64,000 bases of DNA from Azolla caroliniana (taxonomy: Eukaryota > Plantae > Polypodiophyta), in contig JBHGNT010000020.1 in NCBI GenBank assembly GCA_043228905.1, positions 7,750,001 to 7,814,000 of the forward strand, written 5' to 3'. The notes under the pieces are model-generated. The model made no database searches. It saw only the letters and a program-made list of their open reading frames with translations, and was not told the DNA's origin. Below are positions 1-49,912 of the stretch, one piece after another; the first letter of the stretch is position 1; the number at the start of each line of letters is the position of its first letter. The translations under genes were made by a program, and so were the position numbers.

Positions 1-1435
1 TAAGGGGAACTTCTCCGACATTTGTGATCGGATGCGGAGTGTCGTCTCCAGTTGCGACTACTCCCGGTTGTATCGGTTTTTCAAGGTATGAGAACCACTC
101 CTTATGGCTCGTCATGTGGTTTGACGCGCCGGAGTCTACGTACCACACCTCGTCCGATCTCGGGGTGGTCTGTTTCATTGAGTTTGCTTCGTGTCTCGTC
201 ACGAAGGCAGACCCTTCTCTGGCTCTCCCAGAGTCTTCGGCGTAGTGTGATCGCTGCCGATTTCCCTTGTTGGTATGTCCGGAGCCATTTCCGGAACCGG
301 TTCTCTCCGAATCGGCGCGCTTCTTCCAACACTCACTTTCCCTGTGGCCTTTCTTGCCACAGTACTAGCTCTCTGCGATGGCCTTCCCTTGCCTGTTCTC
401 ATCGCATCGACTCCCCCTGTTTCCGGAGGGTCCGGAGTTGCTGTCGGCATCACTTCAGTGCCTTCTTCCTTGATCTCGTCGGCCGCCTCCATTGCGCGCC
501 GACTCGCCTCATCCTCCATTTCCATGGGGCCTTTCTCCCTCTGTGTACAGCATTCTGATGTTGGTGTGCGTGCTTGTAGACACACCCACGTGGTTCTCCT
601 CTACCAGGAGCATTGACTGTAAGTCGAAAAAGGACGGCGTATTCTCTCGGGTACACATAGCCATTCGGAACGCTCCGAATTTCGACGCCAAACCTCCGAT
701 TTTCGACGCAAAGCAGTATAATACCCTGCTCGCCGATTGCTCCCATGACGGGAAGTCTCTGTGTGTCGATTCGGGTGCCGCGTCATTAGCTCCTTCGACA
801 TAACTGCAGTAACCGTGCCCGAGCAGGTACTGGTGCATCTTGTAGGACCAAGACGCGTAGTTGGTTCTATCGAGCTTCTCTGTTGGAAGCGAGCTCGCCA
901 TGCCTCTATCCATCGTTCTTCTTGTTCTTCTTCCTCAAGCTGTGTCGGCTGCAGAGAGGTTCTCAACCCTCGCGCTCTTATACCATGTAAAAAGTAATGT
1001 GCGGAAGCAAGTATGAAGACCGAACAGAAGGAAGAAAACTCAGGTTTAATGGAGAGCTTGAGCTTACGCAGTTTACGCGGGAGAGACAGAGAGAGAGAGA
1101 GAAACACAAGAGGTATATTCAAAAAATACACAATCTCTATTCACCACACTCTATACATATGTGTGCTCAATGAACACTTTTATACAAGTCTTAGAAGGAC
1201 TGACAGAAGTACCAATAGTACTTCAATGCTCATTAAGAGCTCCTACACTAACTCCCAAATATATTCCTCATGGAATATCTTTCCTAACGGCCTCCCGGTT
1301 TACGCACTGATCCGGCCCTACCTACGCACCGGTCTGCGTACCGGTTTACGCATTCGGCCTAACCGATCGGTCCCAACCGATCCGGTCCTCGGCTTCTTCA
1401 GCCGATCCGGCCAATGTTGAGCTTGTCTCTCAACA
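1..1435 (-). mobile_element. Ty1/copia element A, 5' part (LTR, PBS, gag); continues beyond window start
   Basis: LTR 986-1435 (TGT..ACA) closely similar to LTRs at 10717/16008; Met-type PBS 974-985; gag MDRGMASSLPTEKLDRTNY starting at 913, zinc knuckle and WYVDSGAS protease motif near 100-380; inserted into a gypsy gag (flank aatga 1436-1440). Confidence 0.9.
986..1435 (-). repeat. 5' LTR of copia A (450 bp)
   Basis: Follows PBS tacca (981-985); ends ctcaaca; aligns to LTRs of the element at 10717-16400. Confidence 0.9.
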
Positions 1436-7206: not shown

Positions 7207-8200
7207 TTATAAATTACCATTGGAAATGTCTACAAATCTCCTATAAAGAGCTAAGCTCTTGCTAGTCAGTGGAACAAGTCTACATATATTATTCGCATAT
7301 GGAGCTCGGTATGGAGTCCACAACCATGCACCTAGTTGGCAGCTCACTGTTTGCACCAAGTACTGTTCAGGCATTTCCTCGGGTAGAATGAGACAGCATC
7401 TCCGAATATTGAAGTAGTGCCAGAAATGTTCTGTATCCAAAATCAATGTGTTGTCGACATTATATTCAGGCCAGGTAGCCCAAAAATCAAAAAGTCTCTT
7501 GAATCTTGCAGCTTCCATTTGCTCACAATTTTCTCGTGCCCATTGACCTTTAAAACAACTTCGCCATTTTGGGAAGAATCTTGCTAAACACTTCCACACA
7601 TCTGATTTTGGTTTTTCACTCCAAATAAACAAATCAAAGTATTGCACAACCCACTCTAGAAACTGATTCGCGTCCCTCCTTGGCTGCATATATCTCACAC
7701 TCATCAAGACTTTATCAAGCTCCAAGATCAAGGCTCTTCTTTTGACTTCTAGTGGTTTACGTTTCCATTCCTGAAACTGAGCCACTGTTACACCATTTTC
7801 TGGTAGGACATGATCAATCTCAATAAGCTTAGATTCGGCCGACACAACTAGCATCCTTTTCCTCTTCAAACCCCTAGTAGACTGTGTTGGGCCTGGCTTC
7901 ACATTCTAGTGCTCTTGTTTTGTCGACTTAGTTATCAATCCTTGGATTACCTCGGTGCATGTAGTTACTAATCTACTCGATATCAGTCCACTGGTATCAC
8001 ATGTTGCATCTACCTACAACACCAAGTCATCCGTGCAACATGCTTGATCAACTTGTGTGACCAGATCACTTGTGTTAGTTGCTACATCTACTTTCAAGAT
8101 GGGGCCCTTTAAACACGCCGCAACATCAACAATATCCACGCTGGCATTGTCCTTACGAGCAATAGAATCAAACCCTTTAGACTCTCCAATATCAGAAAAC
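7207..8200 (-). pseudogene. FCP1/NIF (HAD-family CTD phosphatase-like) domain ORF carried by the Sola2 element
   Basis: RALILELDKVL...FLEWVVQYFDLFIWS...WARENC...FKRLFDFW...YNVDNTLILD follows the NIF/FCP1-homology motif order; ORFs 7207-7902 and 8014-8262 are in the same frame, separated by two TAG stops; 5' boundary uncertain. Confidence 0.7.
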
Positions 8201-8984: not shown

Positions 8985-10310
8985 GCTATTTAGGATAGCT
9001 AATTAGCTACTTTACTAAAGTATGGTAGAAGCTAGGATAGCTAATTAGGATAGCTAATTAGCTACTTTACTCAACTATGGTAGTAGCTAGGATAGCTAAT
9101 TAGCTACTATGGTAGCTAATTAGCTACTTTACTCAACTATGGTAGTAGCTAGGATAGCTAATTAGCTACTTTACTAACTATGGTAGTAGCTAGGATAGCT
9201 AATTAGCTAATTTACTCAACTATGGTAGTAGCTAGGATAGCTAATTAGCTACTAGGATAGCTAATTAGCTACTTTACTCAACTATGGTAGTAGCTAGGAT
9301 AGCTAATTAGCTACTTTACTAACTATGGTAGTAGCTAGGATAGCTAATTAGCTACTTTACTAACTATGGTAGCTAATTAGCTACTTTACTCAACTATGGT
9401 AGTAGCTAGGATAGCAAATTACCTACTTTACTCGACTATGGTAGTAGCTAGGATAGCTAATTAGCTACTTTACTCAACTATGGTAGTAGCTAGGATAGCT
9501 AATTAGCTACTTTACTCAACTATGGTAGTAGCTAGGATAACTAATTAGCTATTAGGATAGCTAATTAGCTACTTTTCTCAACCATGGTAATAGCTAAGAT
9601 AGCTAATTAGCTACTTTACACAACTATGGCAATAGCTAATTACCTAGTAGGATAGCTAATTAGCTACAATGATAGCTAATTAGCTACTTTCTCAACTATG
9701 TAGTAGCTAGGATAGCTTATTAGCTACTAGGATAGCTAATTAGCTGCCAGTAGCTAATTAGCTACTAGGATAGCTTATTAGCTACTTTACACAACTATGG
9801 CAGTAGCTAATTAGCTACTAGGATAGCTTATTAGCTACTTTACACAACTATGGCAGTAGCTAAGTAGCTAGTAGGATAGCTAATTAACTAGTAGGATAGC
9901 TAATTAGCTAGTAGGATAGCTAATTAGCTAGTAGGATAGCTAATTAGCTTTTTTACACAACTATGGCACTAGCTAATTAGCTAGTACCATAGCTAATTAG
10001 CTAATTAGCTAATAGCTAATTAGCTACTTTATAGAACTATGGTACTAACTAATTAGCTAGTAGCTAACTAGCTGCCAGTAGCTAATTAGCTACTAGTAGG
10101 ATAGCTAATTAGCTAGTAGCTAACTAGCTGCCACTTAGCTAATTAACTACTGTAGTAAACTATGGCAGTAGCTAATTAGCTAATAGGATAGCTATTAGCT
10201 GCTTTAATCAACTATGGTAGTAGCTAATTAGCTACAATGATAGCAGCAAAATAGTTTCCATACTTTTTACAACTTAGCTAATTAGAAAAGACTAAGCTTA
10301 TTAGCTATAG
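8985..10310. repeat. Array of ~42-bp and 20-bp units with TAGCTAATTAGCTA core filling an intron of the accessory gene
   Basis: ggatagctaattagctactttactcaactatggtagtagcta repeated, with shorter variants. Confidence 0.95.
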
Positions 10311-10716: not shown

Positions 10717-13700
10717 TGTAGAAAGTAGCGTGCGGAAGCAAGTATGAAGACCGAATAGAAGACAGAAAACTCAGGTTTAATGGAGAGCTTGAGCTTACGT
10801 AGTATACTCAGGAGAGATAGAGAGAGAAAGAAGAACTATATTCAACAACAAAAGATCTCGATTCACTACTCTGTACATATGTGTGTTCCATGAACACTTT
10901 TATACAAGTCCTCGAAGGACTGACCGAAGTACTGACCGTACTTCAATGCTCATTAAGAGCTCCTACACTAACTCCCAAATATATTCCTCACGGAATATCT
11001 TTCCTAACGGCCTCCCGGTTTACGCACTCGGCCTAACCGATCGGTCCCAACTGATCCGGTCCTCGGCTTCTTCAGCCGATCCGGCCGATGTTGAGCTTGT
11101 CTCTTAACACTCCCCCTCAAGCTCAACTCGAGGCTCTTTGGAATCCTCGGGCTCACAGCTCCGGTTCCTCCTGGCTTCACGCCTCGCTCGCACTCCTCGA
11201 CCTGTTCGACTCCGCGCGCTTCGACCCTTCCGGTCGGCTTGTCTGCTCATGCGTCCCTTATTAGCTCTTCTGCTGTTGCGGTGTTGACGCTTCTCCTGTT
11301 GCCTATTCTTCCGCTTGGGCCTCGGTTGATTCAGCGTATCTGAATCAAACATCCGAATCGACTCGGCTACCTCTGATCGGTTTTTGCTCCCGTTCGAGTT
11401 TGCTGTCTCCAACTCCTCTTCGGTCTTCTCGCCCTTAGTGGCGTCATCTTCCCCTTGCGTGGTTGGCTTCGGCTCTCTCCTTCAGCTGCTCCCCTTCTGT
11501 CCGCTTTCAGACTTTTCCGCGGGTCCACCCTCGGCTTCTTCAGCCGATCCGAAGTCGAACTCAACAACCGAGTCAACAGCCGAGTCAACCGACTCGGTGT
11601 CGCGGTCTCCGCTCCTTTCCTCCTGCCTTGCTTGGTCGTTCGGGACTATTCTCCCCCTCAAGTTTGGCACGTCGAGGTGACGCAATCCGAGCGCACCTAA
11701 GAATTGCCGCAACTTGTCCAGACCAAGAGGCTTGGTGAAGATGTCGGCAATTTTCCGATCCGTCGGAACGTACTAAACTTCGACTTCACCGGAAAGGACA
11801 CGCTCACGGACGAAATGGTAGTGCACCTCAATGTGCTTAGTCCGTGTGTGGAAAACGGGGTTTTTCGCGAGCTGGATGCTGCTGAGGTTGTCGCAGTAGA
11901 TCGTCGTCGGATCTGACACCTCCTCTTGCAGGTCCTTAAGTAGCCGCTTCAACCATATGGCTTCGCATGTCGTGACAGCCGCTCCTCGGTACTCAGCTTC
12001 GGTGCTTGATAGTGCAACTGTCGGCTGCTTCTTACTGCTCCACCCGATCGCGGCACTCCCGAGGGAGAATGCGTATCCGGATGTGGATCGGTGATCGGCG
12101 GCGTTGCCAGCCCAATCAGCATCGGTGTAGCCGACTAATTGGACGGCTGCACTGGTCTGATATACCAGTCCCCGGTCCTTAGTGCCGTTGACATACCGAA
12201 GTATGCGTTGTGCACATTGAAGGTGCACCTCAGTAGGTCGCGGCATGAACTGACTGATCACTCCGGCCGCATAAATGAGGTCGGGTCGAGTGATGGTCAA
12301 GTATATGGGGCTTCTGACAATTTGTCGGAACCTCATCGGGTCGCATACCTTTCCCGTATCGGGACGAAGCTTGACGGTTCTGTCCAGGGGAGTCAAGACG
12401 GACTTACAGTCGGCCATCCCGAGTTTGAAGAGCATACTCAGCACGTAATGACTTTGGCTGATCAATATGCCTTCGGGGGTACGGATCACATCGATCCCAA
12501 GGAAGTAATAAAGGTCCCCCAGATCCTTCATGTCGAACGATGCCGCAAGCTGGAGCTTCATGCGGTCGATTTCACCTAGGTCGGCGCCGGTGATGACCAA
12601 GTCATCAACATATAGTAAAATACTAACCGGTCCGAGTCGACCTTTTCGGATGAACAGGGAAGAGTCCGATTTTGACGTGACGAAGCCCATCCGACGCAGT
12701 TGTTGCGTGATCTTCGCGTTCCAGGCACGCGGGGCTTGCTTTAGTCCGTAAAGGGACTTCTTCAGTCGGCATACTGCCGAGGAGTTCGTTCCGGAGTGAA
12801 AACCGGGGGGCTGTACCATGTACACCTGTTCCTCAAGGTCACCTCGTAGGAACACATTCTTTACATCCATCTGATGTAAGTGCCACCTCTCGGCCGCATC
12901 TACTGCGAGCAAAACACGGATGGTCGTCATTTTCGCGACCGGCGCAAACGTCTCATCGTAGTCCATGCCGTGTTTCTGCGCGTAGCCCTTTGCCACTAGC
13001 CGAGCCTTGTACTGGTTGACCGAGCCATCGGTGTTGTACTTGACCTTGTACACCCACCTACACCCGATCGGTTTAACCCCTTTTGGTGCGTCAACTAGGT
13101 CCCAGGTCTCGTTCTCCGCCAATGCATGCATCTCTTGCTCCATCACGGCATGCCAATTCGCGTCTTTAGCCGCTTCTACGTAGCTCTCCGGCTCACGCAC
13201 TTTCACTACACGGGTCATGTACGTATAATGATGCGCCATGTACTCGTTGTATCCGAACCTCAAAACAGGATTCTTCTGGCGAGTAGACCGGCATAATCTC
13301 ACATTAGTCGATGTCGAGGCCTTTTCGGTCGACGCGGTCTTCACCTTTAAAGACCCGTCACCGGTTCCCTCGGAGTCTGACTCGCGTTGGTCTGACTCGT
13401 TCTTATCCGTGCCGGAATCCGACACCTTCTTCTTCCCTTTCTGTTTGTGCGTAAGCCGTCTCCTTGGAATGCACGACCGAGTTTCCACTACTCGCCGGCT
13501 CTTCATTGGACTGGTTGTACCGACTCAGTCGTCCAATTGGTCCACTTAAACGGAGTGAAATCGGACTCTCTTCGCGGGTCTCGATTTTGGGCTCATCCGG
13601 AGGCATCTCGGCCTCGCTGACCTCATCGTCAAAGCTTGGATTGGAGTCGGGGTTCGGAGTCGGGGGCTGGTACCAGGACGCAGACTCGTCAAACACAACG

Positions 13701-16400
13701 TCGCGGCTAACACGCGCTTGTTTGGTGCGAGCGTTGTAGCACTTATAACCCTTCTGCTCGTCCGAGTAACCGACCAAGATGCACTTCTCGGCCTTTGCGT
13801 CCAGCTTCCTCCTTTTCTCCTTCGGTAGATGCACATACGCAATGCTACTGAACACCCTCAAGTGTCGCAAGTTCGGCTTTGTTCCGAAATATAGCTTGTG
13901 CGCCGACACTTTGTCTCCGATCCGGTTCTGGATATATACCGCGGTCCTTACTGCCTCGGCCTAGTAGAACTTGGGCAAGCTCTTCTCCTCCAGCATTGCC
14001 CGTGCCGCTTCCACAACTGACCGATTCTTCCTCTCGGCCACACCGTTCTACTCCAGCGTGTATCTACAACTGAATTTGCACCGAATTCCCATTTGTTGTA
14101 GATAACCGTTGAATTGACCCAAAAAGTACTCTTTCCCGCCATCCGACCGCAGGCACTTGATCTTTCGTCCCGTTTCCGTTTCCACGAACCCTTTGAGGTC
14201 ACGAAAACAGTCGAAGACTTCGCTCTTCCTCTCAATGAGGTAGATCCACGTGTGCCGCATGTGGTCGTCGATGAAGGAAACGAAATATCGGCTCCCGCCA
14301 AGACTAACGTTTTGTGCCGGCCCCCATACATCGGAGTGTATAAGGTCGACCTTGTTCCTGCTCCGGTTTCGCTCGTTGGGGAAAGGAAGTCGGTGGTTCT
14401 TCCTAAGCTGGCAGGCTTCACAAATTTGTGCCTTTCGGCCACTAAATTTGGGCAATCTGAACACTACCTGTTTCGATTGTAGATCTTGAAGCCGCTGGTA
14501 GTTGACGTGGCCTATCTGCTTGTGCCACAAGTCGATGTCCGACTCGGATGTTTGTCACTTCGTGAACATTGCGGTGCCGCCATCAGTGGAGTCGAGGATG
14601 AACATCCTCCCGTCTCTGCGCCCTTGCGCAATCACACGACCTTCTTCCTCAATGAAGCACCCGAGGTGTGTAAACCGAACCTCCATCCCTTGGTCGACGA
14701 TCTGTCCGACCGAGACCAAGTTCTTCGTGATTGTCAGAACATGCAACACGTTCATGAGTTTCCCTTTCTGCCCGACATGGCTAAGGGGAACTTCTCCGAC
14801 ATTCGCGATCGGATGCGGAGTGTCGTTTCCAGTTGAGACTACTCCCGGTTGTATCGGTTTTTCAAGGTACGAGAACCACTCCTTATGGCTCGTCATGTGG
14901 TTTGACGTGCCGGAGTCTACGTACCACACCTCGTCCGATCTCGGGGTGGTGCATTTCATTGAGTTTTCTTCGTGTCTCGTCACGAAGGTAGACCCTTCTC
15001 TGGCTCTCCCAGTGTCTTCGGCGTAGTGCGATCGCTGACCATTTCCCTTGTCGGTATGTCCGGAGCCGTTTCTGGAACCGGTTCTCTCCGAATCGGCGTG
15101 CTTCTTCCAGCACTCACTTTCCCTGTGGCCTTTCTTGCCACAGTACCAACACTCCGCGATGGCCTTCCCTTGCCGGTTCTCATCGCTTCGACTCCCCCTG
15201 TTTCCGGAGGGTCTGGAGTTGTTGTCGGCATCACTTCGGTGCCTTTTTCCTTGATCTCGTCGGCCGCTTCCATTGCGTACCAACTCGCCCCGTCCGCCAC
15301 GACCACGGGGCCTTTCTCCCTCCGTGTACAACATCTTGCTGTCGATGTGCGTGCTCGTCGACGCACCCGCGTGGTTCTCCTCTACTAGGAGCATCGACTG
15401 TAAGTCGAAAAAGGACGGCGTATTCTCTCGGGTACACACTGCCGTTCGGAACGCTCCAAACTTCGACGCCAAACCTCCGAGACAGATCTGGACCATCTCG
15501 CTCTCCTCGATGTTCACCTCTATGGAGCCGAGGGAGTCGCAGATATCCTTGATCTTCGAGGTATAGTCCGCCACCGACAGGTCGCATTGTCGTAGGTTGC
15601 TCAACTCCTGTCGGAGCTGAAGCTTCCTGGCTGTGGTGCTCGCGGCGAAAATCTTCTTCAGATTTTCCCACGCACCCTTCGGCGTCTTTGCATCCCGGAC
15701 ATAGCTCAATAGTTGTTCGCCTACACAAAACGCGAAGCGGTATAATACCCTGCTCGCCGATTGCTCCTACGACGGGAAGTCTCTGTGTGTCGATTCGGGT
15801 GCCGCGTCATTAGCTCCTTCGACATAACTGCAGTAGCCGTGCCTGAGCAGGTACTGGTGCATCTTGTAGGACCAAGACGCATAGTTCGTTCTGTCGAGCT
15901 TCTCTGTTGGAAGCGAGCTCGCCATGCCTCTATCCATCGTTCTTCTTGTTCTTCTTCGTCACTGTGTCGGCTGCAAAGAGGTTTTCAACCTTCGCGCTCT
16001 GATACCATGTAGAAAGTAGCGTGCGGAAGCAAGTATGAAGACCTAACAGAAGACAGAAAACTCAGGTTTAATGGAGAGCTTGAGCTTACGCAGTATACTC
16101 GGGAGAGACAGAGAGAGAAAGAAGAACTATATTCAACAACAAAAGATCTCGATTCACTACTCTATACATATGTGTGTTCCATGAACACTTTTATACAAGT
16201 CCTCGAAGGACTGACCGAAGTACTGACCGTACTTCAATGCTCATTGAGAGCTCCTACACTAACTCCCAAATATATTCCTCACGGAATATCTTTCCTAACG
16301 GCCTCCCGGTTTACGCACTCGGCCTAACCGATCAGTCCCAACCGATCCGGTCCTCGGCTTCTTCAACCGATCCGGCCGATGTTGAGCTTGTCTCTCAACA
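10717..16400 (-). mobile_element. Full-length Ty1/copia element B
   Basis: 393-bp LTRs 10717-11109 and 16008-16400 (11 differences counted by eye); TSD aagct (10712-10716, 16401-16405); PBS tggtatcagagc 16007-15996; PPT from 11110. Confidence 0.97.
11104..15937 (-). pseudogene. Copia B gag-pol (Gag, zinc knuckle, PR, INT, RT, RNase H, C-terminal extension)
   Basis: CWYCGKKGHRESEC, WYVDSG, HSDVWGP, RSDGGKEY, YVDDL, YTDADWAG, ADIFTK; several nonsense codons and a frameshift. Confidence 0.95.
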
Positions 16401-17234: not shown

Positions 17235-17690
17235 ATTAGAAACCCCAATCAACAACAACAGAAATAGTGCAAAATCTTTAACTTAGCAAATCTGAAACCC
17301 TAATCATAATTTGTATTCAGAAATTTGAAATTAAAAAACCCTAATCAAAATCTGTAATCAGAAGTTTGAAATCAGAAACCCTAATCAAAATCTGTAATCA
17401 GAAGTTTGTAACCAGAAACCCTATTAAGAAATTCTAATAAAAAATTTATAATCAAAAACCCTATTTAGAAATTCTAATCAGAAATTCAAATCTGTAATCA
17501 AAATTTGTAACCAAAAACCCTATTCAGAAATTCTAATTAGAAATTTATAATCAAAAACCCTAATAAGAAATTTCAATCAGAAACCCTAATCAGAAATTTC
17601 AATCACAAACCCTAATCAGAAATTCTAATAAGAAATTTATAAACAAAAACCCTAATCGGAAATTTCAATCAGAAACCCCAATCATCACTA
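17235..17690. repeat. Degenerate AAACCCTAAT/AGAAATT repeat (telo-box-like) in an intron of the accessory gene
   Basis: About a dozen aaaccctaat-like motifs interleaved with cagaaatt. Confidence 0.8.
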
Positions 17691-23998: not shown

Positions 23999-24644
23999 AC
24001 GTGTCAGTACTTCTGTCAGTCCGTATGGACTTGTATAAAATTGTTCACTGAGCACATCCTATGTACATATTGAGTATTACTTTTTAATTGAGTTTGTGTT
24101 TATTCTCTTTATCTATCTGTCTCTCCCGCGTATTGTGTATATTCAAGCTCTCCATTAAACCTGCATTTCTGTGTTCGGTTTTCTATTGCTTCCGCACGCT
24201 ATTCTTTTTACATGGTATCAGAGCACAAGGGTTGAGAACCTCTGCAGCCGACCTTAGCTCAAGAAGAAAACCTAACATTTGTAAAGAACAAGAAGAACAA
24301 AATGAATAGAGGCATGACTAGCTCGCTTCCTACCGAGAAGCTCGACAAAAACAACTACGTGCCTTGGTCGTACAAGATGCACCAGTACCTGCTCGGGCAT
24401 GGATATTGGAGCTATGTCGACGGAGCCAATGACACAACACCTGATTCGACACACAAAGATTTCCTAGTGTGGGAACAGTCGGCGAGTAGAGTCCTGGGGG
24501 CTTCACTATGAAAACTTGTATGATAGCACGTGAGTTCATCAAAAGGGGTTTAAATTAACCATTGAGATACAAAACGTATATAAAAATGCATAAAAAATAT
24601 ATTTACATAAGGGTATTATCAATTATGCTATAGAAAAAAATTAC

Positions 24645-33021: not shown

Positions 33022-36000
33022 GAAAGCAAAGAGAGCAAGAGAGAAGGAGCCATGAGTGTGATCAACCTCTTCGAAGTGGCCCTCCTTTGGCAAGCAAGGA
33101 TGTGTAGGATGAGCTACAAGAAGGCGAGAATTTGTGGTCATTAGGATCCAACCACTTTTCGAGGGTTATTGGTTTAATACCATATCAATTTTTTACCATA
33201 TTCATATGTGTGCATGTGTATTTGCATATGCATGGTTGTGTTTGTATGTGTCTATTTGTATGCATGTATGAATGCATGCACACATGCATTTGTAGCATTC
33301 CATCTCATGTTCTTTTTTTACATGTTAATTTGTGTATTTGCTATTGTCATTTCACAAGCAAGAAGAGTTCTTTTGGTCTTGAGAAGCCTCATGCGGAGCT
33401 CATGATGGCGATGCTTTCTCTATAACTATGGATGGTCTTCATTCCTTTCATGAATTTTTGGATTTGGAGGTTGACATTTATTAGGAACATTTCTGAAGCC
33501 AAGTGGGTGTTTATTCATCGAATCCCACCCACTTTAATCTTCACTAACCATGTCTGTGGATTTTTATTATTACCTAACATTGTATTCATCTTTCTTGGTG
33601 CTACATCATTAGGAGAATGCAAGGTCCTCATTTCTACTTGTTGTAAAGGAAGGAGATTGATAAATAAATCATTGCATGTGTTATAATATATTACTTTCCT
33701 CTCATCTAATGAATTATTGTTTGTTTGAAACATTATTTGAACCGTAGGTATGTCATTATTATAGCAAGTTGGTTTTGCATGTGTTTGTTTGTTGCAAACT
33801 ATATAATCTAAGGAAAAGGTGTATTAGAAAGAGATGTTGTATTACCAATAGTGTGATTGATATGTATGGTAAATGTGGCTTGACCCATGTAGCACATATA
33901 TGCTTGATAAGCTTCACATATTGAATCAGTCATATATTAATCTCTTCCTCGTTAAATAATGTTGTGATGTGAGAAGTTATTGAGCATTTGAAGGAACTTC
34001 TTGTAGTGATGGGGTATTCATGATGATTGTTGATGAATTTCATAAAGTTTAAATGTAGAATAACTATCAAACCAAATAATGAACTCTTGAGTCTTTATTA
34101 GTAAAAAAATATCTATGATTTAGGTGCAAATAGACACGGGCCCCTACACACATAGATACATACACACATGTTATACAACTAAGATATACTACACATACAA
34201 TATAATACATACATAAATAAACATGGAATACAATACATACATGCAATGCAATACATACATATGAACACACACATAACACATACATACATAAAGTATATAT
34301 AACATATGCAATACAATATAATACATACATACACACATGTATAAAACATACATGTGTCTTCTATATAAGGGCATTTAAAATGAGTTGTTGTCAAAATATA
34401 TATTGGCACTAAGGGATATTTTTATTAATCGTATTTTTATAGAAGGGTATCTAAAATAGTAAAAAACATACGTATAAGGGGTTTATAAAAGGCGCCGCGA
34501 ACGCACATGATATAACCTCTTTATATATACTGGAGACCTTGGGAGTAGAGTTCTCTACTACTTCGCGTCTTGTGTGGGCGAACAGCTTCTGAGCTATATT
34601 CGGGATGTGAAAACGACGAAGGATGGTTGGGGAAATCTAAAAAAGATTTTCACCGCAAGCACCACAACTAGGAAGCTTCAACTCTAACAGGAGCTGAGCA
34701 ACTTACGACAATGCGACTTGTCGGTGGCTAGTGACACCTTGAAGATCAAAGAGATATGCGACTCCTTAGCCTCTATCGATGTGAACATCGAGGAAGGCGA
34801 GATGGTGCAGATTTGTCTCGGGGGACTAACGTCGAAGTTCGGAGCGTTCCGAACTGTTGTGTGTACACGGGAGAATACACCGTTGTTTTTCAACCTATAG
34901 TTGATGCTCCTTATAGAGGAGAACCATGCGGGTGTGTTGACGAGCACGTACGCCAACATCAAGATGCTGTACAAGGAGGGAGATAGGCCCCGTGGTCGTG
35001 GCGGACGAGGCGAGTTGGTGCGCAATGGAAGCGGCCGACGGGATCAAGGAAGAAGGCATCGAAGTGATGCCGACAGCAATTCCGGACCCTCCGGAAACAG
35101 GGGGAGTCGAGGTGACGAGAACCGGCAAGGGAAACTCGTCGTGGAATGCTGGTATTGTTGCAAGAAAGGCCACAAGGAGAGCGAGTGCTGGAAGAAGCGC
35201 GCTGATTTGGAGAGGACCAGATCCGGATCAGGTTCCGGACAAACCGACAGGGGTAATCGGCAACGATTGCACTACGCCGAAGGATCTGGAAAAGCCAAAA
35301 AAGGTTCAGCCTTGATGACGAAACACGAAGCGAACTCGATGAAGAAGTCCACCCCGAAATCGGACGAGGTGTGGTACGTCGACCTCGGCGCATCAAACCA
35401 CATGACATGCCATAAGGAGTGGTTCTCATACCTTGAGAAACCGATGCAACCGGGAGTAGTCGCAACCGGAGACGACACTTCGCACAATCGCGAATGTCGG
35501 TGAAGTTCCCCTGAGCCATGTCGGGCAGAAACGGAAACTCATGAACATGTTACACGTTCCAACAATCACGAAGAACCTGGTGTCGGTCGGACAGATCGTC
35601 GACCAAGGGATGCAGGTTCGGTTTACGCATCTCAGGTGCTTCATCGAGGAAGAAGGCCGAGTTATTGCGGAAGGGCGTAGAGACGAGAGGATGCTTATCC
35701 TCAACTCTAGTGACGGTGGCACCACAATGTTAGCGAAAGGACAAAATGTTGAGTCAGATATCGACTTATGGCACAAGCGGATAGGCCACGTCAACTATCG
35801 ACGGCTTCAAGACCTGCAATCGAAATAGGTGGTGTTCCGATTGCCCAAATTTAGTGGCCGGAAGGCACAAATTTGTGAAGCCTGCCAACTAGGGAAGCAA
35901 CACCAACTTCCTTTACCCCGACGAGCGTAACCGGAACCGGAACAAGCTCGACTTGATACATTCCAATGTATGGGGGCCGACATAGAATGTTAGTCTTGGC

Positions 36001-39000
36001 GGGAGTCGATATTTCGTCTCCTTCATCGACGACTATACGCGACACACATGGATCTACCTCATTCAGAAGAAGAGTGAAGTCTTCGATTGTTTCCGGGACC
36101 TCAAGAGTTTCGTCGAAAGGGAAACATGAAGAAAGATCAAGTGCTTGTGGTCGGATGGCAGAAAAGAGTACTTCTCTGGTCAATTCAATGGGTATTTGCA
36201 ACAGATGGGAATTCAACACGAATTCAGTTGCAGATATACGCCGGAGCAAAACAACGTGGCCAAAAGTAAAAATCTGTCGGTTGTGGAAGCGGCGCGGACA
36301 ATGCTAGAAAAGAAGAGCTTGCCCAAGTTCTATTGGGTCGAGGCGGTACGAACCGCGGAGTACATCCAGAATCGGATCGGAGACAAAGTGTCTGCGCATT
36401 AGCAGTATTTCGGAAGGAAGCCGAATCTATGACACTTGAGAGTTTTTGGTAGCATTGCGTATGTGCATGTGCCAAAGGAGAAACAGAGGAAGTTGGACGT
36501 GAAAGCTCAGAAGTGTATCTTAGCCGGCTATTCGGATGAGCAGAAGGGTTATAAGTGCTATAACCCCCGAACCAAACAAGCTCGTGTAAGCCGCAATGTT
36601 GTGTTTGACGAGTCCGCGTCCTGGTACTTGCCTCCGACTCCGAACCTCAACTCCAATCCGAGCTCTGATGATGAGGTCAGCGAGGCTGAAGTGCCTCCCG
36701 ATGAGGGTGACATCGGGACCCTTGAAGAGAGTCCGATCTCGTTTTGGTTGAGTGGACTGAATGGACAACTGAGTCTCTTTGACCAGTCCAAAGAAGAGCC
36801 GGCGAGTAGTGGAGACTCGACCGTGCATTCCCCGCGCAGGAAGCCGAGGAGATGGCTTACGCGCAAGTAAAAAGGGAAGAAGAAGGTGTCGGATTACGGC
36901 ACGGATAGGAACAAGTCGGACCGATGCGAGTCCGACTCCGAGGGAAGTGATGACGGGTCTTCAAGAGCGAAGTCCGCGTCGGCTAAGGAAGCCTCAACAT
37001 CGGCTAATGAGCAATTACGCCGATCTACCCGCCAGAAGAACCCTGTTGTGTGGTTCGGATACAATGAGTACATGGCACATAACTATGCGTACATGACCCA
37101 TGTAGCGGAAGTGTGTGAGCCGGAGAGCTACGCCGAAACAGCGAAGGACGCGAATTGGCATGCCGCAATGGAAGAAGAGATGCGCGTATTGGCTGAAAAG
37201 GAAACTAGGGACCTAGTTGACGCACTGAAAGGTGTGAAGCCGATCGGATGTAGGTGGGTGCACAAGGTCAAGTACAACACTGATGACTTGGTCAACTGAT
37301 ACAAGGCCCGGTTAGTAGTGAAAGGCTACGCGCAACAACACTGCATCGACTAAGATGAGACGTTTGCACCGGTCGCAAAGATGACGACCATCGGCGTTTT
37401 GCTCGCAGTAGCTGCGGCCAAGGGGTGGCACTTACATCAGATGGATGTAAGGAAGGCGTTCTTGCAAGGTGAGCTTGAGGAATAGGTGTACATGGTACAT
37501 CCCCCCTGATTTCACTTCGAAACGAACACCTCGGCGGTGTGCCGGTTGAAGAAGTCCCTTTACGGACTAAAGCAAGCCTCACATGCCTGGAACGCGAAGA
37601 TCACGCAATGATTGCGTCGGATGGGCTTTGCGATGTCAAAATTGAACTCCTCACTATTCATGTGGACAGGTTGACTCGGGCCGGTTAGCATTTTACTTTA
37701 TGTTGATGACTTGGTCATCACCGGTGCCGACCTAGGTGAGATTGACCATGTGAAGCTCCAGCTTGTGGCATCATTCAACATGAAGGATCTGGGGGACCTT
37801 CATTACTTCCTCGGGATCGAAGTGATCCGCACCCCCGAAGGCATACTAATCAGCCAACGACATTACGTGCTGAGTATGCTCTTCAAATTCGGGATGGCCA
37901 AAGTATGCGACCCGATAAGGTTCCGACAGATAGTCGGAAGCCTTATATACTTGACCATCACTCGACCAGATCTCAGCTACCCGGTCGGGGTGATTAGTCA
38001 ATTCATGGTGTGACCTACCGAGGAGCACCTTCAGTGTGCGCAACGCGTACTACGATACGTAAGCGACACTAAGGACTGGGGGCTACTATATCGGACTGGT
38101 ATAACCCTACAGTTGGTCGGCTACACCGATGCCGACTAGGCTGACGACATCGCCGATCGCCGATCCACGTCTTGTTTCACGTTCTCTCATGGGAGTGCCG
38201 CGATCGTGTGGAGTAGCAAGAAGTAACCGATAGTTGCGTTGTCGAGCACCGAAGTCGAGTATAGATGAGCGGTTGTTGCTACATGCGAAGCCATATGGTT
38301 GAAACGACTACTTAAGGATCTGCAGGTGGAGGTATCCGATACAACAACAATCTACTGCGACAACCTTAGTAGCATCCAGCTAGCAAAGAACCCTGTTTTC
38401 CACGCTCGGACTAGGCACATTGAGGTGCACTACCATTTCGTCTGTGAGCGCATCCTCTCCGGTCAAGTCGGATTTCAGCATGTTCCGACGGATTGGTAGA
38501 CCACCGACATCTTCACCAAGCCTCTTGGTCTAGACAAGTTGCGGCAATTCTCGGGTGTGCTTGGGTTGCGTCACCTCGATGTGCCAAACTTGAGGGGGAG
38601 AGGCATCCCAAATGACCACAGAAGGGGGAGAGAGGTTCTGGAAGACCGCGACGCCGAGTCGAATGACAAATTTGATTTTGGATTGGCTGAAGAAGTCGAG
38701 GGCGGATCTGCGGAAGATTCCGAAAACGGACATAAGGGGAACAATCGAAAGAAAGAGCCGAAGCTAACCAAGTGTGGGGGAGACGAAACCATCAAGGGCG
38801 AGAAGACCGAAGACGAGTTGGAGACAACCAACTCGAACGAAAGAGAAAATCGATTGGAGGAAACCGAGTCGGTTCGGATGTTTGATTCGGATACGCCAAA
38901 TCAACTGAGGACCAAGCGGAAGAGAAGGCAGCAGAAGAAGCGCCAACACCGTGACAATAACAGAGTTGAGAAGGGTCGTGCGGGCACGCAAGCCGACCGG

Positions 39001-39218
39001 AAGGGTCGAGGTGCGCGAAATCGAACAGGTCGAGGAGCGCGAGCAAGGCGTGAAGCTAGAAGGAACCGGAGTGTAGATCCGGAAGAGCGAATGGAACCTC
39101 AAGTTGAGCTTGAGGGGGAGTGTTGAGATACAAGCTCAACATTGGCCGAATCAGCTGTGCAAGCCGAGAACCGGATCAGTTGGGATCGATCGATTAGGCT
39201 GGATCGGTGCGTAAACCG

Positions 39219-41253
39219 GATGTTCAGTAACGACTATAGTCGGAAGACATGGGCCTTTGTACTGAATTTGAAGGATCAAGTAATGTCATTTTTCAAGGAG
39301 TTCCAGGCAAGAGCCGAAAGAGAGTCAGGTTGGAAGTTGAAGGTTGTTTGAATCGACAATGGTGGCGAGTATAGAGGGCAATTCGAGGAATACTGCAAGT
39401 GCCAAGGTATTCGGATCGAACACACAGTTCCAAAGACCCTAGAGTTGAACGGGCTTGCAGAGAGGATGAATCGAACAATCATGGAGAGGGTAAGGAGCAT
39501 GCTCTCTCATGCGAAATTGCCGAAATCTTATTGGGCTAAGGCAATGTACACAGTTGTTTATCTGGTCAACAGGTCTCCCTCAGTACCATTAAAGGGTGAT
39601 GTCCCACAGAGAGTGTGGATAGGGAAGGATGTCTCCTACCAACATCTGAGGGTGTTCGGATGTTTGGGGTATATGCATGTACCGAAGGATCAGAGGTCAA
39701 AGCTCGACAGTAAGTCGAAGGCATGCATATTCATGGGATACTAATGAGTTCGGCTATAGGCTATGGGATTTGGTCGACAAGAAGGTAGTGAGAAGTCGGG
39801 ATGTAGTCTTTCTTGAAGATAAGACTATTAAACACTGGAAGCAACAGAAGTCAGATACAACTCCCCAGTCAACCTCGACTATTGTTGATCTAAGGTTAAG
39901 TGAACCAACAACGTCGACTGTTTGGAGACGGGCAGTTAGCATAGCCGAATCCGAGTTGGTCGACTCGGAGAGACCAACCGACTGTGAGTCAAAGTCGGTA
40001 GAGCTGCTAAGGTCAAGTGAAGAGTATGAGTGGAGTCGTCCAACCTGAAGATGCCGATTGACGAGAAGAATCCCGAGTGGAGAGAAGGGTTGGCAGAGAC
40101 ATCCGAAAGAGAGCCAACAACAAGTTGAAGAAGATACCCACTCAGAGAAAGGAAAGCATCGACTACATATGCCAGTCAATACATCCTCTTGACTGATGAA
40201 GGTGAACCGGAGTGCTATGAAGAAGCCATTGCCGACGAGCACAGAGAAAAATGGCTGAGCGCGATGCAAGATGAGATGGAATCCTTGCACGAGAACTACA
40301 CCTACGACCTGGTAGAGCTGACGAAAGGTAAGAGAGCACTCAAGAATAAATGGGTCTACAAGGTGAAGACTGGAGAAGCCGATAGTGAGCCCAGGTATAA
40401 AGCCCGCATAGTGGCGATTGGTTTTCAACACAAAAAGTGCGTCGACTTTGACGAAATATTCGCACCAGTCGTGAAGATGACATCCATTCGAACTGTTCTG
40501 AGCATAGTGACCAATATGGATCTAGAGATCGAACAGTTGGATGTCAAAACCACATTTCTACATGGGGAGCTAGAAAAAGAAATCTATATGCAGCAACCTG
40601 AAGGCTTTGAGGAGAAAGGGAAAGAGAATCAGGTGTGTCGACTGAAGAAAAGCTTGTACGGTCTGAAACAAGTTGCACACCAATGGTAGAACAAGTTCAA
40701 GTCCTTCATGATGGAACACCGGTTCCAAAAAGCCGATCACTGTGTGTTCTTCAAGAGGTACGAAGAAGGAGACTTCTTGATTCTCTTGTTATATGTTGAT
40801 GACATGTTGATAGTCGGTCAAGATACAAGGAAGATTCGAAGCTAGCAGAAAGCTCTCGGCAAATCGTTTGCCATGAAAGACCTTGGACTGGCTAAACTTA
40901 TCTTGGGAATGCACATAGTTCGAGACAGAACTCAAAAGGTGCTATGGCTGTCACAATAGAAGTATGTGACAAAGATCCTAGAGAGATTTAACATGTTAGA
41001 TGCAAAGCCGGTCGGCTCAGTATTGCCGACAAACTACAAGTTAAATGCAAAGCAGTGCCTGAGGGAGGAGAAGGAGAATGCCGAGATGAGGAAGGTACCA
41101 TATGCCTCGGTTGTCGGTAGCCTAATGCATGCTATGGTTTGTACGAGACCAGACATAGCATTTGCTGTAGGAGCAGTAAGCCAATATATGAGTAATCCAG
41201 GGAGAGAACACTGGCCAACAATGAAGTGGACACTCAGGTACTTAAAGGGAACC
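39219..41253 (+). mobile_element. Fragment of a Tnt1/Tork-like copia (integrase to RT)
   Basis: NDYSRKTW, DNGGEY, NGLAERMNRT, QLDVKTTFLHG, YVDDML, LRYLKGT; both ends truncated; related to the element at 59128. Confidence 0.88.
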
Positions 41254-46176: not shown

Positions 46177-49100
46177 TGTAAATGTTAAGGTGTTGAAGTG
46201 TTAGACAGAACTAGCTCAACTGGATAGCAACAATGAATAAGATGAAGGTTTAATAGAGAAGCTTAACACACATAGAATATACACGGGAGAGACAGAGAGA
46301 GCAGAACGTAAACGTCAATTCTAAATAATAAAAACACTCTGTACATACAATGTGCTATAACAACACTATTTATACAAGTCCATAAAGGACTGATCGAAGT
46401 ACTGACAGGTACTTCAATATTCCTACATGCAACTGACACTAACTACGAGACCATGATTACCTAGTAGTCTAGGCTACTACTAGGCTTCTGATTCGCACTC
46501 GAATCCATCTCCTCGATCCAGCACTTGTTTCTGAATACCGATCCGGCTCAGGCTTATTCAGCAAATTTGGATCCAGTTGAGCTTGCTCACTCAACACTCC
46601 CCCTCAAGCTCAACTTGAGGTCGGATCGTGGTGTTAGTGTCCGTGGCAGCCGATTCTTCTAGCCTTCTCCTTCTAGCGTCACTCCGCCTTGCTCACGCTC
46701 CTCGTCCGGTCCGGTCCTGTTTGCCGCGACCCTTCTGGTTCTGCGCACCTCGACCTCCTCGGCCGGCGTGTCTGCTCAATAGTCCCATTTCAGCTCCATC
46801 GCTATTGCGACTTCGGTGCTTGTGTACCAGTCAGTTCCTTCGTGTCGGCGTCGACTTCCACTGCATCCATGTCCGCTTGGGCTTTAGTTGATTCGGCTTC
46901 TCTGAACCCAACTGTTGAAGCGAATCCGTTGTCTTCGATTCGTTACCGCTCTTGTCCAAGTCAGTGTTCTCCAACTCGTCTTCCGGTACCAGGCCCTTCA
47001 CCACATCAGACCATGTCCGGGTCTTGGCCTTCTCCTTCCGGTCGGCTCTGTCCTTCTTGATTCTGTCGCCTCTACCACTCGTTCCGACTTGTTCGAATGT
47101 GCCGACTTCCTTCGTCGACTCGGCTTCCTTTTTCCTCTTGTCTCCCCCTTTGTTGGTTCTTCCCTTTACGGTTCCTCGTCTGTTGCCGTCAGCAGTTTCC
47201 TAGCCTTTGCCCATTATGGCACCGGTTTCTTTGCTTGTGCCCGTTCTCCCCCTCAACTGCGGCACGTCGAGATGCTAAACACCAAGCATTTCGGTGAAGT
47301 GTTGCACCTTGCCGATTCGAGCAGTTTGGTGAAGATGTTGGCAACCTGCCGATCCGTCTGAACATACCAAAGTTCGACTTCGCCACTCAAGATTCGATCA
47401 CGCATGAAGTGATAATGCACTTCTATGTGCTTTGTACGAGCATGGAATATGGGGTTCTTGGTGAGCTATATGTTTCTTATGTTGTCGAAGTAGATTAGGA
47501 TCGGGTATGACACCTCGATCCGGAGATCTCGCAGCAGTCGCCGAAGCCAGATGGATTCCCCGGTATTCAGCCTCAGTTCTCAACAGAGCCACTATTGGCT
47601 GTTTTTTGCTGCTCCATGCAATAGTTGCACTACCAAGGGAAAACTCTACCCGGAGGTGGATCGGCGATGTGATGCATCACCAGCCCAATCACCATCTGTG
47701 TATCCGACTATCTCTTCAGTTATATCGTGCCGGTATAACAGTCCCCGGTCCTTCATGCCACTCACATATCACAATATTCGATGCACGCATTGAAGGTGCT
47801 CCACGGTTGGCTTTTGCATGAATTGGTTGATCACACCGACCAGATAACTGATGTTGGGTCATGTGATTGTCAAGTATATCAGGCTTTCGACTATTTGTCA
47901 GAACTGTTTCTCATCGCAGGCCGGTCCGGAGTTGGGACAGACCTTCTAGTTCCAGTCCAGGAGTGTGGAGATAGGTTGGCATTTCGTCATGCCGAACTTG
48001 ACCAGCATATTCAACACATAGTGTCGTTGTGAGAGCAATATGTCGTCGGGGGTTCGGATCACCTCGATCCCAAGGAAATAATGAAGGTCCCCCTGGTCCT
48101 TCATCTCAAATGCGTCCGACAGTTGGGCCTTGATATGGCCGATTTCATTGAGTCCGGGTCCAGTATTGACTAAATCATCTACATAAAGTAAGATGGAAAC
48201 CGGACCGTCCGGACCCCATCTTACACAACCGGTGCATGATCTTCGCATTCCAAGCTCAAGGAATCTTGTTTCAAACCGTAAAGTGACTTCTTAAGCCAGC
48301 ACACTACCGAATTGTTCATCTCCGATTGAAAACCGGGAGGTTGGATCATATAGACCCGTTCTTCAAGGTCACCTTGAAGAAACGCATTCTTCACGTCCAT
48401 CTAGTCAAGATGCCACCACCTTGCCGCAACAATCACCAGTACCACATGAACCTTCATCATCTTCACTACCGGAGCGAAGGTCTCGTCGTAGTCGATTTCG
48501 TGGGTTTGTGCGTATCCCTTCGCCACTAGCCGGACCCTGTACCGGTTAACCAAACCGTTGGCATTGTACTTTACCTTGTACACCCATTTGCAACCGATCG
48601 GTTTACAATGTCGGGGAGGGTAAACGAGGTCCCATTTCTTCTTCCATAGCGGCACGCCAATTTGCATCCTTTGCCGCTTCTGCATAGCTCTCCGGCTCAC
48701 GCACTTCCGCCACTTTGGACATGTACGCATAGTGATGCACCATGTACTCATTGTACCCATACCGGGTAACGGGGTTCTCCGATTGAGTGGTCCTTGACCC
48801 ACTCGCGTGGTTTTCTTCAATTATCAGGATCGATTGCAAGTTAAAGAAAGTCAGTGACTTCTCCCGGGTGCAGAGCGCTGTTCGGATTGGCCCGTACCTT
48901 TGCGTTAGACCACTAAGGCAGATTTGTACCATCTCGTCTTCGTCCACCGTCACGTTGATGGACCCAAGTGCATCACAAATCTCCTTTACTTTGTTGGTGT
49001 AATCTGTAACTGACATGTCTATTTGTCGGATGTTGTTCAGCTCTTGTCGGAGCTGCAACTTACGGGCTGTGGTACTAGCGGCGAATATCTTCTTCAGATT

Positions 49101-49912
49101 TCCCTAAGCCTCCTTCGACGTTTTTGCATCTTTATGTAGGCGAGCATCTGGTCCTGCACATAGGACGCGAGGCAGTACAATACTTAGCTCACTCCTTGCT
49201 CCCATACCAGGAAGTCCTCGTGTGCCGGCTCTTGCGCTACCTCATTCGCTCCTTCCACGAAGCTCCAATATCCATGCCCCAGTAGGTACTGGTGCATCTT
49301 GTATGACAAGGACGCGTAGTTGCTCCAGTTGAGCTTCTCTATTGGAAGTGAACTTGCCATTCCTCTGCCCATATCTTCTCTCTGTTTGTTGTTACTGGGT
49401 TCTAGGATTCGTCTACGAAAGCAGTGTCGGTTGCGGAGGTTCTCAACCTTCGCGCTCTAATACCATGTAAATGTTAAGCTACGGAAGCGTTAGACAGAAC
49501 CGGCTCAGGCAGATAGGAACAATGAATAAGATGAAGGTTTAATGGAGAAGCTTAACACACAAAGAGTATACACGGGAGAGACACAAAGAGTAGAACGTAA
49601 ACGTCGATTCAAAATAATAAAAACACTATGTACATACAATGTGCGATAACAAGACTATTTATACAAGTCCATAAAGGACTAACAAGTACTTCAATATTCC
49701 TACGTGCGACTGACACTAACTATGAGACCATGATGACCTACTAGTCTAGGCTACCACTAGGATTCCGATTTGCACTCGAATCTGGCTCTCTGATCTGTCT
49801 CCCCGATCCAGCCAGTTGTATCTGGATACCGATTCGGCTCTTGTTTCTAGATACCAATCCAGCTTGGGCTTATTCAGCCGATCCGGATCCGGTTGACCTT
49901 GCTTGCTCAACA
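46177..49912 (-). mobile_element. Internally deleted Ty1/copia element E (relative of B/C)
   Basis: LTRs 46177-46596 and 49466-49912; TSD ctcat (46172-46176, 49913-49917); PBS 49465-49454; gag joined to the pre-RT region near 48780 (no PR or INT). Confidence 0.92.

What the first reader, a model, noticed from the sequence alone, without database searches (positions are those of the whole stretch)
11104..11712. Copia lineage with two polypurine tracts and a conserved ~180-220-aa acidic-then-Arg-rich Pol tail
Seen: where copia Pol normally ends (LRG at ttgagggggag) the frame continues to a second ttgagggggag and stops just inside the LTR (PQVELEGEC). This holds in B (PPTs 11651/11110, one stop), C (38590/39110, no stop) and divergent E (47246/46597, 221 codons, three stops). 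Length differences are multiples of three, and the motifs EDELE, PNQLxxKR and RTGRGARARR recur. Inference: the tail is under protein-level selection (NLS, nucleic-acid chaperone or targeting function); the upstream tract may be a second plus-strand primer.
Basis: partly seen in the sequence, partly recalled or inferred. Interest (0 to 1): 0.7.

Follow-up and report, generated by a model that had tools for sequence, protein, structure and literature searches.

The report
Copia Pol tail between twin PPTs
An abundant plant jumping-gene family keeps an extra 170-260-codon reading frame on the end of its reverse transcriptase gene, between two copies of the purine signal that starts second-strand DNA; the frame likely makes a floppy, charged, nucleic-acid-binding arm, and relatives suggest the doubled signal likely came first.

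Summary
B, C and E are Ty1/copia elements whose Pol frame runs 185, 178 and 221 codons past RNase H, from an upstream PPT to a terminal PPT, and stops inside the LTR. The family has over 2,300 copies, none tail-less. Frame selection is strong: 75 of 107 tail indels are multiples of three (LTR control 52 of 226), and all 10 youngest copies are in phase with no fixed stop. Amino-acid constraint is only weak to moderate (omega 0.40-0.58 on shared alleles, 0.75-0.85 tree-wide). Relatives form a series: one PPT without tail, two PPTs with a short closed spacer, two PPTs with a long open tail. The doubled PPT therefore likely predates the coding tail, and it is conserved at nucleotide level. Only the terminal PPT defines LTR ends. 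Best reading: a disordered, charge-segregated RT-RNase H extension, likely nucleic-acid binding, plus a likely second plus-strand primer. Multiple PPTs and the flanking inverted repeat are known from Sireviruses, which this is not. My searches found no description of the fused tail, and the scan had not noted it before. New variant of a known kind; function untested.

The parts
10717..16400 (-). Element B, 5.7-kb Ty1/copia, LTRs 97% identical, 5-bp target duplication AGCTT
16008..16400 (-). B 5' LTR (393 bp), starts TGTTGA, host DNA before it
15996..16007 (-). B primer-binding site TGGTATCAGAGC directly after the LTR (3' end of full initiator tRNA-Met; identification from my own knowledge)
11662..13524 (-). 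B integrase-RT linker, RT (PF07727) and RNase H; one stop at 11773-11775
11651..11661 (-). B upstream PPT (PPT1), read LRG(R); no TG attachment site, no inverted repeat reaching the LTR
11104..11661 (-). B Pol tail, 185 codons, acidic then Lys/Arg-rich, one internal stop
11529..11551 (-). 23-nt CGG/CCG palindromic box in the B tail (FGSAEEAE codons), identical to the U3 box
11110..11120 (-). B terminal PPT (PPT2), abutting the TG of the 3' LTR, read LEGE
11090..11127 (-). 10-bp inverted repeat around PPT2 (left arm 11118-11127, right arm 11090-11099 in U3)
11061..11083 (-). U3 copy of the 23-nt box
10717..11109 (-). B 3' LTR
34543..39219 (+). Element C, 5'-truncated, 79-83% identical to B; 3' LTR cut at about 39219 by another copia
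38590..39126 (+). C Pol tail, 178 codons, open; PPT1 38590-38600, PPT2 39110-39120
46177..49912 (-). Element E, divergent clade (about 68% to B), internal deletion of protease and integrase, target duplication ATGAG
46591..47256 (-). E Pol tail, 221 codons, three internal stops; PPT1 47246-47256, PPT2 46597-46607
1..1435 (-). 5' part (LTR, gag, protease) of a fourth family member that runs off the window

Best explanation
This copia family carries two copies of its polypurine tract with a conserved open frame between them, which is likely translated as a disordered, acidic-then-basic extension of RT-RNase H that likely binds nucleic acid during reverse transcription, while the upstream tract likely primes a second plus strand. 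Shown: the anatomy, frame conservation in thousands of copies, modest amino-acid constraint, nucleotide-level conservation of PPT1, LTR ends set only by PPT2, and a three-step series among relatives. Inferred: (1) an ancestor duplicated its PPT-LTR junction and the upstream copy lost its TG attachment site; (2) the spacer lengthened and was recruited into the single Gag-Pol frame; (3) RNase H leaves RNA primers at both tracts, PPT2 makes the strong-stop DNA that is transferred, and PPT1 starts a second piece about 0.5-0.7 kb upstream that ends as a displaced flap; (4) the Arg/Gly-rich block acts as a tethered, sequence-tolerant nucleic-acid-binding or annealing arm, offset by the acidic block. 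My odds: frame selected and translated 0.9; protein acts through charge on nucleic acid 0.5; PPT1 primes 0.55-0.6.
For: Frame: 65 of 89 pattern-chosen copies with both tracts are in phase over many lengths; 58 of 77 tails vs 55 of 77 RNase H stretches in phase; stops per 100 codons 0.79 vs 2.79 and 5.70 in the other sense frames, 3.94 shuffled, 0.40 in RNase H; indels x3: tail 75 of 107, LTR 52 of 226; youngest copies 10 of 10 in phase, 7 open, no stop column above 5 of 32; gag start in phase with the tail in 11 of 17 near-full-length copies. Amino acids: shared-allele omega 0.41-0.56 vs singleton 0.85-0.90, pooled p about 2-5e-5; LRT against omega=1: 2dlnL 24 (E) and 4.3 (B/C). Character: GRAVY -1.66, no hydrophobic segment, median charge -7 then +11; no fold, pTM 0.14; no Pfam or Atlas match. 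PPT1: 95 of 100 exact under a degenerate pattern; same LRG codons in four lineages whose comparable codons match only 31-48%, with AG kept across an Arg/Ser change. History: long-tail clade (100) sister to a short-spacer two-PPT clade (99), jointly 99, beside single-PPT families; a U3-like box in the tail exceeds all 30 shuffles in 21 of 30 B/C copies. Precedent: internal PPTs prime plus strands and flaps in Ty1, HIV and EVADE (PMC7197481, passages).
Against: Tree-wide omega is 0.85 and 0.75 against 0.47 and 0.61 for the integrase-RT linker and 0.42/0.39 for RNase H; the basic half alone gives 0.93 and 1.07, which conflicts with the shared-allele result for that half (0.45-0.50). The B/C shared-versus-singleton contrast is marginal (p 0.05-0.28). 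Whole modules are lost in frame (tails of 355-802 nt). Two antisense frames are also stop-poor (0.91 and 1.24 per 100). No protein, binding or priming data exist. No integrated copy begins at PPT1 (0 of 31 dated copies). The U3-like box is significant in only 7 of 34 E copies and could be later copying between tail and LTR. Sister-group copies are metagenome fragments of unknown age, so their closed spacers may partly be decay; the tree is a quick, midpoint-rooted one.
Confidence: 0.45

Rival explanations
1. The frame is kept open to protect the genomic RNA. A stop at RNase H would leave about 0.8 kb of 3' UTR and invite nonsense-mediated decay, so the peptide is only a tolerated hydrophilic passenger.
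For: Frame selection is much stronger than amino-acid selection. Large in-frame deletions are tolerated. Sister elements with short spacers (55-267 nt) have closed frames. Long 3' UTRs are proposed NMD triggers for copia RNA (PMC5580714, passage).
Against: Shared-allele omega is about half the singleton value and omega=1 is rejected in the E clade. Motifs and the acidic-then-basic order persist across clades about 68% identical.
Confidence: 0.27
2. The tail is a nuclear-import or chromatin-tethering signal that brings the RT-containing complex into the nucleus or to preferred sites.
For: KRKRRQQKKR-type clusters and Arg-rich blocks are present. The family is very abundant (2,341 and 3,873 exact pattern matches).
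Against: The tail sits on RT-RNase H, not on integrase. The integrase-RT linker already has its own basic cluster. The 150 scored copies lie scattered over many large contigs, with no tight clustering seen; centromere positions are unknown here.
Confidence: 0.2
3. PPT1 is kept for a reason other than priming (a local RNA hairpin, packaging, or a recombination site between the two RNA copies), whatever the tail does.
For: PPT1 lacks the attachment site and the LTR-spanning inverted repeat. A short upstream stem is predicted but is no better than shuffles (z -0.6 to +0.5). Bousios et al. leave the role of upstream PPTs open. 2 of 100 copies (L039, L112) carry local duplications that include PPT1.
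Against: The conserved bases are exactly the PPT octamer shared with the working terminal tract.
Confidence: 0.35
4. The spacer is non-coding and looks open only because it is T-poor, or because of an antisense frame.
For: T is 11.5% of the sense strand; antisense frames have few stops.
Against: The other two sense frames and shuffles have 3.5-7 times more stops. Indel phase is 70% vs 23%. Antisense frames show no shared-allele constraint except the one that shares the wobble position.
Confidence: 0.03

Closest known systems
Sireviruses / SIRE lineage (Bousios et al. 2010, PMC2829016, passages read)
   Same: Extra copies of the identical octamer AGGGGGAG within about 0.5 kb of the 3' LTR; an inverted repeat only at the terminal PPT; upstream PPT without attachment site; CGG/CCG palindromic boxes in both LTR and pre-LTR region; extra coding sequence between RNase H and the LTR (SIRE1 reads through one stop into its env-like ORF, as cited there; original paper not read).
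   Different: Two tracts rather than about four; no AT between PPT and TG; 5.5-5.9 kb with 0.39-0.45 kb LTRs vs 10.5 kb and 1.28 kb; the extra frame is fused with no stop, lies between the PPTs, and is short and hydrophilic with no membrane segment.
Classic compact plant copia (Ale/Alesia/Lyco/Gymco-type; Neumann et al. 2019, PMC6317226, passages and Additional file 5)
   Same: Single Gag-Pol frame, tRNA-Met PBS, 5-bp target duplication, about 5-6 kb; nearest named proteins are angiosperm RE1-labelled or unnamed copia Pol at about 50% identity.
   Different: These lineages are listed with no 3' extra ORF (threshold 250 codons, so a fused tail of this size would not have been scored). Nearly all of the 120 database relatives end within about 25-55 residues of the ADxFTK motif. 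Bousios reports a single PPT in all classic elements.
Central PPTs of Ty1, HIV-1 and Arabidopsis EVADE (PMC7197481, passages)
   Same: A second purine tract inside the coding region, which there primes plus-strand DNA and makes a flap.
   Different: Those are central; here the tract is the ancestral Pol-end PPT, only 0.5-0.7 kb from the LTR, and priming is not shown.
Unnamed single-PPT and short-spacer sister families in metagenome contigs (L131-L209, P0001, P0003)
   Same: RT-RNase H 55-66% identical; the same junction, with IR arm, PPT, TGTTGA and right arm.
   Different: No tail (33 of 58 readable loci), or a 55-267-nt spacer in mixed phases with stops (9 of 9 with both tracts readable).

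Membership tests
Ty1/copia LTR retrotransposon | LTRs TG...CA, target duplication, PBS, PPT, order gag-PR-IN-RT-RH, RVT_2 | tested here: met
   crude TSD test positive in 16 of 31 dated copies
Sirevirus (SIRE) | Multiple identical AGGGGGAG PPTs near the 3' LTR | tested here: met
   two tracts in most of 89 copies; two vs an average of four in Sireviruses
Sirevirus (SIRE) | Inverted repeat bordering the terminal PPT | tested here: met
   also present in about half of classic elements, so not diagnostic
Sirevirus (SIRE) | AT/TG attachment site after the terminal PPT | tested here: not met
   PPT abuts TG directly; TGTTGA in 80 of 89 copies
Sirevirus (SIRE) | Large element and LTR (about 10 kb, 1.3 kb) | tested here: not met
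   mostly 5.1-5.9 kb with 386-476-bp LTRs
Sirevirus (SIRE) | Separate env-like 3' ORF | tested here: not met
   fused frame, best 19-residue hydropathy window 0.22
Sirevirus (SIRE) | RT/RH clusters with SIRE references | tested here: inconclusive
   tree held no row labelled SIRE by a source
Bryco / Osser | Half-tRNA-Met PBS | tested here: not met
   TGGTATCAGAGC type in B, E and most dated copies vs table
Ale / Alesia / Lyco / Gymco | Full tRNA-Met PBS, 5-bp TSD, single ORF, about 5 kb | tested here: met
   shared by several lineages, so not discriminating
Ale / Alesia / Lyco / Gymco | RT, RH and INT placed in the REXdb lineage | not testable with these tools
   REXdb FASTA and element table are too large to read here; they could name the lineage and might hold elements with such a tail
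Functional internal (central-type) PPT | Plus-strand 5' ends or a flap mapped at the tract | not testable with these tools
   only conservation was tested

The most novel reading that the evidence does not exclude
A copia lineage grew a new Pol domain de novo inside a duplicated PPT-LTR junction. The second PPT creates a short 3' flap, and the new charged arm on RNase H manages it, by annealing or strand displacement. The lineage thus re-evolved Sirevirus-like 3' anatomy independently, and the ancestral, intermediate and derived states all survive.
Probability: 0.25. Interest if true: 0.72.

Novelty: new variant of a known kind. Interest (0 to 1): 0.5.

Why it matters
In copia elements Pol normally ends at RNase H, on top of the PPT. 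Here a family with thousands of copies keeps about 200 more codons there, and its relatives show the steps by which that arose. It is a clean case of new coding sequence growing inside a retroelement. It also offers a simple two-tract system for the open question of what upstream PPTs do: one tract makes the LTR end, the other does not, and they lie only 0.5-0.7 kb apart. Annotation tools that look for the PPT at the end of RNase H, or only for separate ORFs of 250 codons or more, would misplace or miss these features. The gain is within transposon biology; no new chemistry is shown.

Tried and rejected
Pfam found nothing significant for the tail (best E 0.52). The ESM Atlas gave no usable hit. 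AlphaFold on a 31-row alignment gave mean pLDDT 54 and pTM 0.14, so no fold search was run; a shallow alignment cannot prove disorder. Protein searches returned only unnamed relatives of the tail itself: 3 longer, 63 near-length, 299 by profile, of which I read a sample; cluster look-up gave no useful names. Tail-less copies: 0 matches with TGTT after PPT1 against 2,341 PPT1 matches. Copies starting at PPT1: 0 and 1 matches for two tail-start motifs, and the one (L210) is a small duplication after an intact PPT1; power is low. Three protein-search loci flagged as lacking RNase H: two have it, one is a rearrangement. Expression: no RNA holder listed. Poly(A) reads of a related label lay at 80-95% identity across the tail at depth about 4-21, mostly in the orientation expected for sense RNA, but about 65% ran on into unlike sequence; I take this as neither for nor against translation. 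PQVELEGEC as a protein motif was rejected because it overlies the cis signal. Sirevirus and Bryco membership were rejected (membership table). REXdb placement was not possible. Earlier scan notes for this genome concerned a different Gypsy family, and sequence and word look-ups were empty. One copy (L047) was put in the wrong clade and corrected from then on; L039 and L040 are one locus counted twice.

Full report
Observation. The 11-mer TTGAGGGGGAG occurs exactly at the six stated places (7 matches at one mismatch, 1.07 expected). Read from LRG, the frame gives 185 codons in B (one internal stop), 178 in C (none) and 221 in E (three), and ends VELEGEC-stop within the first six LTR bases. The PPT distances 541, 520 and 649 are all 1 mod 3, so the two tracts are read in different phases. 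B is a 5.7-kb copia with 97% identical 393-bp LTRs, a tRNA-Met-type PBS and a 5-bp target duplication. C is 5'-truncated. E is a deleted member of a clade about 68% identical to B.

The family. The own genome is 523 Mb; I did not determine the host clade. The PPT1 context matches 2,341 times and the PPT2 context 3,873 times, and no PPT1 match is followed by TGTT. I took the first 100 PPT1 matches on one contig, chosen by DNA pattern and not by the tail protein. In 89 a second tract was found within 1.5 kb: 65 in the B/C/E phase, 13 and 11 in the others, with in-phase lengths from 355 to 802 nt. RNase H splits the copies into two deep clades, B/C-type and E-type, and tail type follows the split. 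Gag start and tail are in phase in 11 of 17 near-full-length copies, as expected for one Gag-Pol frame with some decay.

Is the frame selected? Yes. Among 77 copies with both anchors, 58 tails and 55 RNase H stretches of similar length are in phase. Stops per 100 codons are 0.79 in the tail frame, 2.79 and 5.70 in the other sense frames, 3.94 in shuffles and 0.40 in RNase H. Two antisense frames are also stop-poor (0.91, 1.24), as the low T content predicts. In nucleotide alignments that include frameshifted copies, 75 of 107 tail indels are multiples of three against 52 of 226 in the adjacent LTR; for shared indels the counts are 18 of 24 and 13 of 73. Of 29 dated copies, those with LTRs at least 96% identical are 10 of 10 in phase and 7 open; at 90-96%, 10 of 11 are in phase; below 90%, 4 of 8. 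No stop exceeds 3 of 30 or 5 of 32 copies in a well-filled column, and 83 of 99 stops lie one step from CGA, CAG, CAA or TGG. This is the pattern of decay after insertion.

Are the amino acids selected? Modestly. Alleles shared by two or more copies give omega 0.41-0.49 in the E clade against 0.86-0.90 for singletons (p 4e-4 to 4e-5), and 0.54-0.56 against 0.85 in the B/C clade (p 0.05-0.12). The integrase-RT linker gives 0.30-0.41 and RNase H 0.14-0.23. A tree-wide codon model, with about three quarters of its length on terminal branches, gives 0.75 (E; 2dlnL 24 against omega=1) and 0.85 (B/C; 4.3), with off-frames at 0.89-1.06, the linker at 0.47-0.61 and RNase H at 0.39-0.42. For the basic half the two methods disagree (0.45-0.50 vs 0.93-1.07); CpG decay of Arg codons may explain this, but I did not test it. 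The tail is built of short modules (Cys/His, FDFG, WSDVVKG, ELExxNSD, MFDS-NQLxxKR, basic block, RTGRGARARR) that are kept or dropped in frame among subfamilies and database relatives. It is very hydrophilic (GRAVY -1.66), net acidic then net basic (-7, +11), has no Pfam or Atlas match and no predicted fold. Charge and frame seem to matter more than exact sequence.

The two tracts. PPT2 abuts TG and sits in a 10-bp inverted repeat whose arms co-vary in a sister subgroup. All 31 located 5' LTRs start at the PPT2-defined boundary with no PPT before them, so only PPT2 sets element ends. PPT1 is exact in 95 of 100 matches to a pattern that left seven of its positions free. The same LRG codons are used in both clades and both sister subgroups (10 of 14 sister copies exact), where comparable codons match in only 31-48% of cases; the next codon keeps AG while changing Arg to Ser. 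Multiplying over three roughly independent edges gives about 1e-4 (hand estimate). PPT1 is therefore conserved as nucleic acid. That it primes is an inference from Ty1, HIV and EVADE (PMC7197481, passages). Searches for copies starting at PPT1 found none, as expected if the product is a flap, and also if it never primes.

Origin. A metagenome scan with the nearest outside protein (P0001, 66%) returned 79 loci, 58 with a readable RNase H end. In 33 of them (a few families, not independent) Pol ends on a single PPT with the same IR arm and LTR start as PPT2 here, read LSLRGSVE. A second group has LP(S)LRG on a PPT followed by TACT or similar, then a spacer and the true junction. In the 9 of 15 where both are readable the spacer is 55-267 nt, in mixed phases, with stops, though some have partly open repeat-derived frames. 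A quick RT-RH tree of 95 rows (L196 and short matches dropped) puts the long-tail clade (SH-aLRT 100) sister to this group (99), jointly 99, next to the single-PPT families (96). The simplest history is one duplication of the junction followed by growth and recruitment of the spacer. A 23-nt palindromic box, in some copies with about 40 nt of U3-like context, is shared by tail and U3 and beats all 30 shuffles in 21 of 30 B/C copies but only 7 of 34 E copies. This fits a U3 origin or later copying between the two.

Mechanism. I commit to a translated, disordered, charge-segregated arm on RT-RNase H that binds nucleic acid during reverse transcription, with PPT1 as a second plus-strand primer (0.45 for the whole). 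The main rival is that the frame only shields the RNA from decay caused by a long 3' UTR (0.27; the general idea is in PMC5580714, passage). Nuclear import or chromatin tethering gets 0.2. A non-coding spacer is nearly excluded.

Comparison and novelty. Sireviruses have multiple AGGGGGAG tracts, the terminal IR and CGG/CCG boxes, and SIRE1 reads through into an env-like ORF (PMC2829016, passages; PMC3599292, first part). This family fails their attachment-site, size and env-like tests, so it works partly like a Sirevirus 3' end without being one. Bryco is excluded by the PBS (PMC6317226, passages and Additional file 5). Lineage placement needs the REXdb files, which could not be read and might contain such elements. 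Nine literature searches (listings only, apart from the papers named) showed no description of a stop-free copia Pol extension between two PPTs; most subscription journals are outside this library. Verdict: real, a new variant of a known kind, interest 0.5.

Noticed in passing
window 26200-30639 (-), LTR-like repeats 25759-26213 and 32323-32750: Chromovirus-type Gypsy element with a 1,479-codon open frame carrying capsid, protease, RT, RNase H, integrase and chromodomain matches.
   Followed up: no
window 4424-5050 and 8986-10244: Two related tandem arrays of about 20-21-bp units rich in the palindrome GCTAATTAGC, about 70% alike in both orientations.
   Followed up: no
window 17322-17689: Degenerate array of 13-40-bp units containing AAACCCTA, resembling the plant telomere repeat (resemblance recalled).
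   Followed up: no
window 39219-41255 and 60385-63542: A second copia family, two copies about 69% alike; one interrupts the 3' LTR of element C.
   Followed up: no
window 24003-24492: LTR plus PBS-side fragment of the tail-bearing family, about 75% to B, on the opposite strand.
   Followed up: no
L033, L044, L048, L078, L090, L093, L117, L123; P0122, P0172, P0186, P0199, P0307, P0322: The longest tails hold a Cys/His module (C-x5-8-C-x2-C-x2-HH type), seen on both sides of the deep split and absent from most copies; possibly metal-binding.
   Followed up: partly
L039/L040 and L112: Local duplications of the RNase H end including PPT1 give three tracts in 2 of 100 copies.
   Followed up: no
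L140, L141, L143, L149: Sister subgroup whose terminal tract reads AAGGGGCG and whose inverted-repeat arms both differ from this family's yet still pair.
   Followed up: partly
L137, L148: Sister elements whose 267-nt spacer is partly a tandem repeat read as QAEARTSQLR-like units for up to about 60 open codons: a possible early stage of a tail.
   Followed up: partly
L020; L036/L037: Rearranged copies: what appears to be inverted gag sequence joined just before PPT1 in L020 (my reading), and two PPT1 sites 204 nt apart on opposite strands in L036/L037.
   Followed up: no
window 3602-4399 (+) and 7207-7905 (-): Open stretches with HTH_11 (E 6e-5) and NIF phosphatase (E 6e-7) matches.
   Followed up: no
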